A stretch of 64,000 nt of DNA from Ptychomitrium polyphyllum (Eukaryota): positions 11,842,001 through 11,906,000 of the forward strand of contig OZ316775.1 in the NCBI GenBank assembly GCA_973851085.1. The letters are read 5' to 3'. The notes under the pieces are model-generated. The model saw only the letters and a program-made list of their open reading frames with translations, searched no databases and was not told the origin of the DNA. Position numbers and translations under genes: made by a program. This document shows positions 10,279 to 13,382 of the stretch, one piece after another; position 1 is the stretch's first letter, and every line of letters starts with the position of its first letter.

Positions 10279-10926
10279 ATGTGTGATAGACAACCCTGCG
10301 ACATACCCAGGTGTGCCAAAAGTAAGTGTGAGAGTCTGTCCCCGAGGTACAAGCCCTGCAACGAGCCGTGTGACTTCTCACCGTGTAGTGAGACTTGCCC
10401 ACAACCTCCCAGAACACCCACACCACCCAGGCCTCCGTGTCCACGTGCCGCGCCACCCCCTGACCTGCGTCACATCAAGCCTGAGGATCAACAAGCTTTC
10501 CGACAGTGTAAGATTCAGGAATGGCTGGATCACATGGTGGCCAGAGCGCCCCGGGAGTGCTTTGGTCACTATATCGGGAGGGCTTACGCGGTGGCGTCTC
10601 GCGAGCTCAACATCAACGCGCCAGCAAGGACGTGCATAGGCGATGAATTCCCCCACGACGTTGACAGATTCGTGTGGCGTATCCTTCACGGATCACGTCT
10701 CAACATGCAGAAACGTGGGATATGCATAGGATATAATGTAGAGCAGATGAATCTGGCTTTGCTGAGGGAAGAGTGTGAGCTCTACAATATAGACCAAATC
10801 GAGCCTAACCCGAGGATGAGAATGAAAAGAGATGCTACTTGGGTGCATGAAGGCGAGCACTGCTCGTCTAGCAGGGCAGGACGCGAATGCCAAGACAGCA
10901 CACACCGTAACAATCATGAAAAATAA
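10279..10926 (+). CDS. Intronless 215-aa protein of unknown function: Cys/Pro-rich N-terminus plus ~110-aa domain shared with 11799-13382
   Basis: ATG-initiated ORF with coding-like GC. Amino-acid similarity to the neighbouring ORF supports coding status. Confidence 0.75.
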   Translation: MCDRQPCDIPRCAKSKCESLSPRYKPCNEPCDFSPCSETCPQPPRTPTPPRPPCPRAAPPPDLRHIKPEDQQAFRQCKIQEWLDHMVARAPRECFGHYIGRAYAVASRELNINAPARTCIGDEFPHDVDRFVWRILHGSRLNMQKRGICIGYNVEQMNLALLREECELYNIDQIEPNPRMRMKRDATWVHEGEHCSSSRAGRECQDSTHRNNHEK

Positions 10927-11798
10927 CGCAACCAAGCCCATTCGAGCTTGTCAATTCATAAGTAAAGTCTAATGTATAATTTGCAAAATTTTCTCTTAAA
11001 GAGTTTAGATTCGCAAAGTAGATGGTAAGTTATTGGAGATAGACTCATTAGTACTCCTTAGTTATGAAAGTTCTAAAACGGAAGACCAGGTCGAAATTAG
11101 TAGACCATCAATAGAAACATCGATAAAAGAGACTTTCTTCACATTAAAGAGAACTCGGATTCTCTTGGTTAAGAGTTTAGTAAGTATTATGTCTCAAGGT
11201 TAACATTGAGGACATGGTTCTGCGAAGCTACACTACAAGCATACCATTGACAACAGCATATTAAGTTGCAGTTTCCATATTTAACGGCTTAGCTGTCTCA
11301 GTTGTCAATAGAGGTCAAGAGGCAAATTGAATTTCGACACAAGATTTGCTAGTTCACTAATCAAGTGTTCTTGGTTGTTCATGACCTTAAGGTTTCCAGA
11401 TGATCTCAAGACCAAGTAAATTAGGTTTAGAACGGACCCGCAAACCTCCAGAGATCCATATTTGATACTGCCCGTAAACCTGGAAGTTGTCCTTGCCTCA
11501 ACGACATCATGAGTTGCTCTGCAACAGCAGCAACATGTTTAGCATCTATAAACCTGTTCAAGGTATATAAAACATTCATCATTGTTAAGGATTCAAAACA
11601 TGGATAAAATTGCGAAGTGTAGAACTTTGGAGACAAGATAGATGCAGACCTTCGACGTATAAATTGCATTTGTGCAGGACTGCAGGGCGCAAACGATGCT
11701 CATATTAATGCAGGCTCTTCTGCTTGAAACTCTGAACCTTTTCAAGCATGCTCTGAATGTCGTTGATTTCACAACCACATGAACAATAGAGTAGGATT

Positions 11799-13382
11799 TT
11801 AACGCCAGTCACGGTGCCTCAATTGCTGCATGACACCCATCTGGCTGCGCTGGCTGAGAAGCAGAATCTTCTTATAATTCCTCTCCTGGTCATTGCACGC
11901 ATTCAAACGCCTCTCCGTCTCATTCAGATGTCGTCGCAACAGGGACCCTCGCTCAGAATGCAACGCCAAACACTCTTCTCGCAAGGTCCGCAGGAAGAGC
12001 TCATTGTCCCGATTCGAGTACACAATACCCATCCTGGTAAACCTCGAAATCGTGCCCCGGCAAAGCCGCAGCACCCATACATCGAAGGGGCTCAAGTGAT
12101 CGTCAACATATCCAAGGATATGCTTCGAATTGTTGGAATTCAATTCTCCATTCGCATAAGCGTAGCACCTGATGAGATAACTCTCAAACCTCTCTGGCGG
12201 CTCGCTCTGCTTCTGCCGGGCGCAGACTTCCTGCAGGTACTCCTCCAGCTTGCATTGCCGATACGCCTGGCGCTCCTCGCACTTGATGCTGCGCAACAGG
12301 GAGTCATGGTCCCAATCAAGCGGCGCGGCGCAGGGCTCATACAGCTTACGACAATACTCATCTTCCTCTTCGTCCTGATCCGCGCAGTAATGGCTCCTGC
12401 TGCTACAAGACGCCCCGCCGTCATCCTGGGCATTCACAACATGGTCGAATATGATATTAGGGTTCCTCCTTCTCAGTCGCTCGCGTGACGACTTCGATGG
12501 CGGAACGCGCCCTGTAGGATAGTGTGGTTGCCATACATGCGAGTCCCGGGTGTCGTACTTGTCTACCACGCTAATCGGGCCATAGCTGCTCTGTGACCCA
12601 TCGTTTGAGGGAGGTGATCCCTTCCTGCTCGGTCCCAAACCGCAACTCTGGGGAGTCGACGCTTTCTTCTGTCTGCTCGGAGGAGGCGAGTAGTCATCAC
12701 CCCATCCTAATTCACAATACTGCTGCACTGGAGGAGTCCGGGCACGCGACATCGGTGGAGACTTGGGCGAACTCGCACTCTTCTTCAGGATCCCTCTAGG
12801 AAGATGGGATTTAAGTATGCCTCTCGGAGTGTTTGAATTGGAGTGCTGCTGCCCTGGAGGAGTCCGGGAACGCAACATAGGAGGAGACGTGATCATGCCT
12901 CTCGGAGTATTCGATTTCATTACACCTCTCGGAGAGTTGGGTTTCCTATGGCTGGTTGAGGCTTGGGGATAAGGAGAGGGAGACGGAGACGGAGGCTTCA
13001 CTTGGGGGAGAGGATGCTCATGATTACTGTGCACCGGTCTTGGAGAATCAAAATTCTTCAATATACCTCGCAGAGTACCCTTGCGATCCAGAGGGTTGTC
13101 CCCCCTGCACTCGGGTCTGCTCAGGGGCCGGGAAAGCTCTGCGTAGGGTAAGACGTTCTGGTTCTGCTTCCTTGGTGTCGGCGTCTCCCTGTTTGGTGAA
13201 GCCCTACTCTGCCTGTTCGGGGATCCATGAGGCGATACTCCGCACTTCAGCGTCCTAGCATACGTCGGGAGTGGGATTGCATTCTTTCTGCCCTTGGGCG
13301 GGATGTACCCATCAGGCACGAAATGGTTGTGCTTCCGCGGAGGACTGGTCGGAGTCCCACTCCGACCAAAAATGCTCATCAT
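11799..13382 (-). CDS. Intronless 527-aa protein of unknown function: S/T-P-rich disordered N-terminus with repeats, shared domain, C-terminal coiled coil
   Basis: 1.58-kb ATG-initiated ORF with high GC. Its C-terminal domain aligns with the 215-aa neighbour. Confidence 0.85.
   Translation of the reverse strand: MMSIFGRSGTPTSPPRKHNHFVPDGYIPPKGRKNAIPLPTYARTLKCGVSPHGSPNRQSRASPNRETPTPRKQNQNVLPYAELSRPLSRPECRGDNPLDRKGTLRGILKNFDSPRPVHSNHEHPLPQVKPPSPSPSPYPQASTSHRKPNSPRGVMKSNTPRGMITSPPMLRSRTPPGQQHSNSNTPRGILKSHLPRGILKKSASSPKSPPMSRARTPPVQQYCELGWGDDYSPPPSRQKKASTPQSCGLGPSRKGSPPSNDGSQSSYGPISVVDKYDTRDSHVWQPHYPTGRVPPSKSSRERLRRRNPNIIFDHVVNAQDDGGASCSSRSHYCADQDEEEDEYCRKLYEPCAAPLDWDHDSLLRSIKCEERQAYRQCKLEEYLQEVCARQKQSEPPERFESYLIRCYAYANGELNSNNSKHILGYVDDHLSPFDVWVLRLCRGTISRFTRMGIVYSNRDNELFLRTLREECLALHSERGSLLRRHLNETERRLNACNDQERNYKKILLLSQRSQMGVMQQLRHRDWR

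What the first reader, a model, noticed from the sequence alone, without database searches (positions are those of the whole stretch)
10279..13382. Convergent pair of intronless paralogs defining an unassigned ~110-aa domain
Seen in sequence: the 215-aa (+) and 527-aa (-) ORFs align over ~110 aa. A = LRHIKPEDQQAFRQCKIQEWLDHMVARA----PRECFGHYIGRAYAVASRELN...DRFVWRILHG...KRGI...LALLREEC. B = LRSIKCEERQAYRQCKLEEYLQEVCARQKQSEPPERFESYLIRCYAYANGELN...DVWVLRLCRG...RMGI...LRTLREEC. The domain lies at ~10465-10776 and ~11970-12297. DNA similarity is not obvious while the protein pattern is kept, which suggests an old duplication under purifying selection. Both are single-exon in an intron-rich neighbourhood and have unrelated low-complexity N-termini. 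I recognise no named family, so this is a candidate lineage-restricted two-gene module (inference).
Basis: partly seen in the sequence, partly recalled or inferred. Interest (0 to 1): 0.85.

Follow-up and report, generated by a model that had tools for sequence, protein, structure and literature searches.

The report
Unnamed moss four-helix protein family
Two neighbouring moss genes share a conserved domain, predicted to fold into four helices, that no protein-family library we searched names; they belong to a larger family whose named members are all mosses, and they likely work inside cells as protein-binding scaffolds, possibly in sperm.

Summary
ORFs A (10279-10926 +, 215 aa) and B (11799-13382 -, 527 aa) share 37% identity over 110 aa (E 1e-15; 0 of 3000 shuffles reach the score). 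Synonymous sites are saturated while the protein is kept. Both are real moss genes: Ceratodon has both orthologs as consecutive genes (KC19_1G090700, KC19_1G090600). But this is not a two-gene module. A profile search finds about ten divergent groups of the same domain (18-46% identity between groups). A and B are not sisters in the tree, Sphagnum A has no B beside it, and a third Ceratodon paralog lies on another chromosome. Every named member is a moss (Ceratodon, Physcomitrium, Sphagnum); many members are unnamed. The domain is about 125 aa, models confidently as four helices (pLDDT 92), and no member scanned reaches a Pfam cut-off or a meaningful NCBIfam match. New detail: all 8 long B proteins examined carry [GS]ILK motifs, like PP1-docking SILK sites, in a basic S/T-P-rich tail. 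Best guess: intracellular interaction scaffolds, possibly of sperm. Expression and binding are untested.

The parts
10279..10926 (+). Gene A, 215 aa, coding part uninterrupted; ortholog of Ceratodon KC19_1G090700 / M758_1G086200
   Evidence: 87% identical to the Ceratodon protein over 215 columns
10279..10464 (+). Cys/Pro-rich N-terminal tail of A (9 Cys and 18 Pro in 62 aa), kept as far as Sphagnum, absent from the chromosome-4 paralog
10438..10782 (+). Shared domain in A (residues about 54-168), predicted four helices
10795..10890 (+). A-type C-terminal conserved motif block (residues about 173-204), not shared with B; low model confidence
10927..11798 (.). 872-bp spacer between the convergent stop codons, 38% GC
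11799..13382 (-). Gene B, 527 aa, coding part uninterrupted; ortholog of Ceratodon KC19_1G090600 / M758_1G086100
   Evidence: C-terminal 181 aa 83% identical
11802..11942 (-). B-type C-terminal tail (residues 481-527), conserved in B-type proteins only
11943..12341 (-). Shared domain in B (residues 348-480); model pLDDT 92, helices at model residues 21-36, 52-69, 85-103, 110-132; invariant R375, E397, R405, D434, G443
12552..12575 (-). Short conserved motif in the B tail (residues 270-277), matched in 10 of 10 B-type proteins examined, the two short ones included
12783..12821 (-). Two GILK motifs (residues 188 and 197) in S/T-P-R-G-I-L-K-like repeats; candidate PP1-docking SILK sites
   Evidence: motif definition from PMC5874294
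13056..13067 (-). Third GILK motif (residue 106)
13305..13334 (-). Short conserved N-terminal motif of long B proteins (residues 17-26)
   Evidence: pattern met in 7 of 8 long B proteins; the eighth differs by one residue

Best explanation
A and B are two old paralogs of a moss protein family built on one domain, predicted to fold into four helices, that likely serves inside the cell as a protein-binding or self-assembly module, with B's basic tail likely acting as a phosphorylation switch that would recruit protein phosphatase 1, possibly in sperm-forming cells. Shown: real conserved genes; one copy of the domain per protein; variable tails; no hydrophobic stretch that would suit a signal peptide or membrane anchor; [GS]ILK motifs in every long B protein examined; adjacency in Ceratodon. 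Predicted: the four-helix fold. Inferred: the interaction role (a small helical domain used with many different tails), PP1 docking (motif match only), and the sperm context (compositional likeness of the Cys-Pro tail and of the basic S/T-P tail to sperm proteins, recalled). The convergent pair is read as the remnant of an ancient inverted duplication kept by synteny, not as an obligate unit.
For: Reality and selection. A against Sphagnum: pS 0.94 (saturated), pN 0.31 over 210 codons; between Sphagnum loci dN/dS 0.09, 0.09 and 0.31 on few changes. Family: 26 hits at E<=1e-3 among 1.84 billion representatives, 23 after removing one repeat protein and two C-to-T-converted copies. Single domain copy in 132 of 132 domain-bearing proteins among 137 fetched; N-extension 1-387 aa. 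Largest 19-residue hydropathy 0.87 in 14 of 14 proteins checked. Model pLDDT 92.2, pTM 0.86 from 43 sequences; second model, of A, has the same four helices. [GS]IL[KR] in 8 of 8 long B proteins, 1-4 copies; shuffle probability 0 of 5000 for the five with 2-4 copies and 0.008-0.015 for the three with one; net charge of the tails +17 to +27. S/GILK is a secondary PP1-docking motif (PMC5874294, passages).
Against: No canonical RVxF motif in A or B, and none conserved among the 10 B-type proteins examined (2 scattered matches); the review read says about 90% of PP1 regulators have one. The two short B-type proteins (Physcomitrium PHYPA_004763 and P0075) have no [GS]ILK. The GILK copies are partly a tandem repeat, so they are not independent. 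Four invariant charged residues (R375, E397, R405, D434 in 40 of 40, 41 of 41, 42 of 42, 43 of 43 rows) could as well form a ligand or catalytic site. A recalled DUO1-type promoter motif occurs once upstream of each gene, but at about 0.4 per kb in the window this is unremarkable, and 0 of 5 Sphagnum upstream regions checked have it. No named member came from other plants with swimming sperm (liverworts, lycophytes, ferns). Nothing here ties the genes to any tissue.
Confidence: 0.3

Rival explanations
1. B binds DNA or chromatin through its basic S/T-P-rich tail, released by phosphorylation, and the shared domain oligomerises it; the family would be nuclear or chromatin-packing proteins.
For: Tail net charge +27 over 350 aa, 49% S/P/T/R/K; 22 S/T-P dipeptides in the first 269 aa. 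Likeness to SPKK-type repeats of sperm histones is recalled, not tested.
Against: Most family members, A included, have no basic tail, and the domain itself is near neutral (net -3 to +2 in 11 of 13). No DNA-binding family matched in Pfam.
Confidence: 0.17
2. The domain is a small enzyme or ligand/metal-binding unit whose site is formed by the invariant Arg, Glu, Arg and Asp, with nearby Cys and His.
For: R375, E397, R405, D434 and G443 are invariant across groups only 18-46% identical; 3-7 Cys and 4-10 His in the domain stretch of 13 members.
Against: No Cys or His is invariant (best Cys 34 of 40 and 31 of 39 rows); invariant salt bridges are also typical of small helical cores. The model coordinates could not be inspected for a pocket.
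Confidence: 0.15
3. General scaffold or stress-related proteins of vegetative moss tissue, unrelated to reproduction.
For: In P. patens 63% of accessory gene families respond to abiotic stress (PMC12513842, passages). Both genes sit head to head with ordinary neighbours: B 635 bp from a ribosomal protein S6 gene, A about 1 kb from a BTB gene.
Against: No direct evidence; the base rate comes from other genes.
Confidence: 0.2
4. A and B are an obligate heterodimer whose genes are kept together by selection (first reader's module).
For: Consecutive genes in two Ceratodon assemblies. Four further A/B pairs of unnamed proteins have the same longest-contig length (151033, 8995, 3549, 3907), which suggests shared contigs; the 8995 pair are early-branching members of their clades.
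Against: No B-type gene beside Sphagnum A in 7 of 7 loci (near-identical loci, one lineage). No named Physcomitrium A-type protein among the hits. About eight other groups exist. Mosses are reported to keep extensive synteny (title of bioRxiv 10.1101/2022.05.17.492078, search listing only), so linkage can be passive.
Confidence: 0.12
5. The domain is a domesticated retroelement Gag capsid piece.
For: Uninterrupted coding sequences; the conserved E-x-F-x-x-Y-x-x-R spacing (E 41 of 41, F 35 of 41, Y 36 of 42, R 42 of 42 rows) resembles the Gag major homology region as recalled.
Against: No Gag family in Pfam scans at E<=1 of 2, 15 and 21 proteins, while the same library found the window's own copia Gag at E 5e-38. 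Profile comparison with that single Gag sequence: probability 0.04%.
Confidence: 0.04

Closest known systems
Uncharacterised moss proteins Ceratodon purpureus KC19_1G090700, KC19_1G090600, KC19_4G075100; Physcomitrium patens PHYPA_004763, LOC112287477; Sphagnum CY35_11G053700, CAK9192791.1
   Same: Same domain; the first two are the orthologs and are also consecutive genes.
   Different: All are annotated only as hypothetical or uncharacterized. Tails differ by group; the Sphagnum A gene has no B neighbour.
PP1-interacting proteins with SILK motifs (KNL1 named in PMC5874294; Inhibitor-2 and Rif1 recalled)
   Same: [GS]ILK motifs in a basic, S/T-P-rich, probably disordered region.
   Different: No RVxF in B; motifs are tandemly repeated; binding untested; unrelated folded domain.
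Unannotated bryophyte accessory gene families (PMC12513842)
   Same: Lineage-restricted, few introns, no recognised domain; only 27% of accessory families have a domain annotation.
   Different: This family is old and diversified (about ten groups, present in Sphagnum and Bryopsida) rather than young, and has a confidently predicted fold.
Cys/Pro-rich sperm structural proteins of animals (ODF1, SMCP, Drosophila CGP-repeat proteins; all recalled)
   Same: Composition of A's N-terminus (repeated Pro-Cys).
   Different: No homology shown or expected; analogy of composition only.

Membership tests
Any Pfam-A family | Score at or above the family's gathering cut-off | tested here: not met
   0 of 2, 0 of 15 and 0 of 21 proteins reach a cut-off; best E 0.025
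Any NCBIfam family | Significant profile match | tested here: not met
   43 members scanned, best E 0.046, three unrelated single hits
Retroelement Gag capsid-derived proteins | Sequence match to Gag profiles | tested here: not met
   No Gag family at E<=1; hhalign 0.04% against one copia Gag of the window
Retroelement Gag capsid-derived proteins | Capsid-domain fold | tested here: inconclusive
   see Tried and rejected
Retroelement Gag capsid-derived proteins | Major-homology-region-like E-x-F-x-x-Y-x-x-R spacing (reference motif recalled) | tested here: inconclusive
   Spacing is conserved in the family, but it was compared with no fetched retroviral or Ty3 sequence
PP1 regulatory subunits | S/GILK motif in a low-complexity region | tested here: met
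   8 of 8 long B proteins, 0 of 2 short ones
PP1 regulatory subunits | RVxF motif | tested here: not met
   None in A or B; 2 of 10 B-type proteins have a scattered, non-conserved match
PP1 regulatory subunits | Physical binding to PP1 | not testable with these tools
   Needs pull-down or co-immunoprecipitation
Conserved two-gene module | Adjacency kept across the lineage | tested here: inconclusive
   Kept in Ceratodon, probable in four unnamed contigs, absent in Sphagnum
Conserved two-gene module | A-B binding | not tested
Sperm-specific (DUO1-controlled) genes | Expression restricted to antheridia or sperm | not testable with these tools
   The P. patens gene identifiers could not be mapped to the sperm expression table

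The most novel reading that the evidence does not exclude
An undescribed four-helix fold, invented in early mosses and expanded to about ten paralog groups, assembles a moss-specific structure of the sperm cell; A contributes a disulfide-crosslinking Cys-Pro tail and B recruits PP1 through tandem SILK motifs alone, without RVxF, to time assembly by dephosphorylation.
Probability: 0.12. Interest if true: 0.7.

Novelty: new member of a known kind. Interest (0 to 1): 0.35.

Why it matters
The genes are in public annotations only as hypothetical proteins, and the domain has no family model in the libraries searched. Defining it ties together about ten scattered groups of moss proteins, gives a confident structure prediction with five invariant residues to mutate, and offers a concrete test (PP1 docking by tandem GILK). 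Physcomitrium and Ceratodon can be knocked out, so the tests are within reach. Against this, unannotated lineage-restricted families are very common in bryophytes (PMC12513842), and no function is shown here.

Tried and rejected
Fold searches gave no usable match; this shows neither a new fold nor a different one. Foldseek against PDB: 0 matches at E<=1e-3 for both models; against viral models 0. VIA-align against 48,161 chains: best Z 4.8 (rmsd 4.1, 90 aligned) for B and 4.0 (rmsd 4.3, 84 aligned) for A, none at Z>=5; no Gag capsid chain among the 50 rows shown in any of these lists. PDB sequence searches with four profiles: best E 0.2. ESM Atlas: no usable feature hit for A or for the Ceratodon paralog, all structure rows under TM 0.5 by query on a poor model. 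Pattern scans with the A-type alignment: 0 confirmed of 11 candidates in prokaryote genomes and 0 of 26 in viral contigs (low sensitivity). Expression: no RNA holder listed; the two runs laid are contigs that match the region without listed differences, one contig spanning both genes. No genome is held for the window, so copy number in this species is unknown. Complex prediction for A with B was not available. Literature: no paper holds the gene or accession identifiers searched (0 papers each); one search matched 31 papers by substring, and the 20 listed concern crop and tree species (11 not seen). These searches cover main text only; supplements may hold expression values. The P. patens sperm-versus-egg table (PMC12851517, supplement 2, part 1 of 177 read) uses Pp3c identifiers that I could not map to PHYPA_004763 or LOC112287477 (one search listed two papers, not read). 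DUO1-type motif scan: not informative. Earlier findings of this scan: nothing returned. Rejected: chance similarity, recent tandem duplication, assembly artefact, a family of only two genes.

Full report
Observation. The window is moss DNA, judged from its homologs. ORF A (10279-10926, +, 215 aa) and ORF B (11799-13382, -, 527 aa) face each other tail to tail with 872 bp between them. BLASTP aligns A 63-166 with B 363-471 at 41 of 110 identities, E 1e-15. The alignment score of 148 was reached by 0 of 3000 global and 0 of 3000 local shuffles (maxima 79 and 77), and profile against profile gives 98.7%. The DNA no longer aligns (best E 1.6), and identity by codon position is 49, 59 and 35%. Contigs of two public runs of one sample match the region, one spanning both genes, so the arrangement is unlikely to be an assembly error; that sample may be the source of the window.

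The genes are real and conserved. Word-index searches found 11 relatives of A and 8 of B. Cluster look-ups name them: Ceratodon purpureus KC19_1G090700 (A, 87% identical) and KC19_1G090600 (B), consecutive in two assemblies (also M758_1G086200 and M758_1G086100); a third Ceratodon gene, KC19_4G075100, on chromosome 4; Sphagnum magellanicum CY35_11G053700 (A type); Physcomitrium PHYPA_004763 (short B type). Against a Sphagnum locus, synonymous sites are saturated (pS 0.94) and pN is 0.31 over 210 codons; between Sphagnum loci dN/dS is 0.09, 0.09 and 0.31 on few changes; A against B gives pS 0.79 and pN 0.45. That is purifying selection after an old split.

It is a family, not a pair. A HMMER search of 1.84 billion representatives with a 15-sequence profile gave 26 hits at E<=1e-3. 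I dropped three: a repeat protein (P0093) and two sequences whose differences are of the C-to-T kind (P0089, evident against P0047; P0092, judged by likeness to P0088). Of the 21 hits new in that call I looked up 10 clusters; 2 have species names, Physcomitrium LOC112287477 and Sphagnum CAK9192791.1, and 8 have none. So every named member is a moss, but liverwort, hornwort or fern members among the unnamed ones cannot be excluded. A maximum-likelihood tree of 42 domain sequences (one short row dropped) shows about ten groups; B types form a clade (99/97), window A groups with P0004 and the chromosome-4 paralogs (100/98), and A and B are not sisters, though the deep forks are weak and the tree has no outgroup. 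Domain identity between groups is 18-46%, A to B 35%, A to Sphagnum A 55%, so the A-B split likely predates the separation of Sphagnum from other mosses (inferred).

Linkage. Beyond Ceratodon, four A/B pairs of unnamed proteins share a longest-contig length (151033, 8995, 3549, 3907), which suggests the same arrangement elsewhere; I could not read those contigs. In 7 of 7 loci that carry the Sphagnum A protein (98-100% identical to the named one) no B-type gene lies in the flanks; six have 5.5-10 kb on each side, one is 2.9 kb long, and none shares the window's neighbours. No named A-type Physcomitrium protein appeared. The pair is therefore best read as an ancient inverted duplication that many mosses kept, not as an obligate unit. 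A preprint title reports extensive synteny in mosses (10.1101/2022.05.17.492078, search listing only).

Anatomy. The domain is about 125 aa, occurs once in 132 of 132 domain-bearing proteins among the 137 fetched, and sits near the C-terminus behind extensions of 1 to 387 aa. AlphaFold2 gives pLDDT 92.2 and pTM 0.86 for B 348-480, with four helices after an ordered N-terminal loop; the model of A has the same helices (pLDDT 78.6). R375, E397, R405, D434 and G443 (B numbering) are invariant in all rows that cover them. No member scanned reaches a Pfam cut-off or matches NCBIfam; fold searches are told under Tried and rejected. None of 14 proteins checked has a hydrophobic stretch fit for secretion or membranes. 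A has a Cys/Pro-rich head and a conserved C-terminal block. B has a 350-aa head of net charge +27 with many S/T-P sites, three short conserved motifs and three GILK motifs; all 8 long B proteins examined have 1-4 [GS]IL[KR] copies and the 2 short ones have none. So the N-termini are low in complexity but not featureless.

How it most likely works. A small single helical domain reused with very different tails, in soluble intracellular proteins, most simply acts as a binding or assembly module (inference). S/GILK is a secondary docking motif for protein phosphatase 1, usually beside RVxF (PMC5874294, passages); B lacks RVxF, so PP1 recruitment is a motif-level guess. A sperm role rests only on recalled compositional analogies and has no expression support; a promoter motif scan was uninformative. 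I put the whole statement at 0.3, while the descriptive part (real genes, one undescribed domain family) is close to certain. Rivals are chromatin binding through the basic tail, a ligand or catalytic site at the invariant residues, a vegetative or stress role, an obligate A-B heterodimer, and Gag domestication, which sequence tests do not support.

Comparison and novelty. The closest known items are the hypothetical moss proteins named above. Identifier searches found no paper on them (main text only, supplements unseen). Unannotated lineage-restricted families are common in bryophytes: only 27% of accessory families have a domain annotation (PMC12513842, passages). I rate this an undescribed domain family of a familiar kind, worth a family model and a knockout. 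PMC12851517 was seen as abstract, list of supplements and part 1 of 177 of supplement 2 and could not be linked to these genes.

Verdict. Observation confirmed; two-gene module only partly supported; function not shown. Interest 0.35.

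Noticed in passing
window 14018-14200 (+): First exon of a ribosomal protein S6 family gene (Pfam E 9e-09), head to head with B, 635 bp between the start codons; a shared promoter is possible.
   Followed up: partly
window 8095-9287 (-) and 7707-8030 (+): Pieces of a BTB-domain gene head to head with A, and an exon of a CCB2/CCB4 gene.
   Followed up: partly
window 10279-10926 (+): A in this species has more private substitutions than its orthologs in 12 of 12 relative-rate comparisons (5 at p<0.05, not independent, outgroups assumed) and a one-residue deletion after the last helix motif; B shows none at p<0.05 in 12. 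Possibly relaxed selection on A.
   Followed up: partly
window 44518-48497 and 53006-57034 (+): Two copia-type LTR retrotransposon coding regions with interrupted frames (Gag matches at E 3e-24 and 5e-38), and what look like decayed Ty3-type pieces near 57664-59639 (by eye).
   Followed up: no
proteins P0089 and P0092: Database proteins that look like translations of bisulfite-converted (C-to-T) DNA of family genes; artefacts that inflate homolog counts.
   Followed up: partly
protein P0045: An older Physcomitrium model extends the B-type protein by 115 aa past the family's conserved end; probably a gene-model fusion with a neighbour.
   Followed up: no
proteins P0083, P0085, P0109, P0020, P0021: Some members stop or diverge abruptly inside the domain, and Physcomitrium LOC112287477 has annotated isoforms, so not all family genes may be intronless.
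   Followed up: no
window 36172-37454 (+); 16473-27171 (-): An acyltransferase gene (Pfam E 6e-16) and exons that look like an RNA-binding protein gene (by eye).
   Followed up: no
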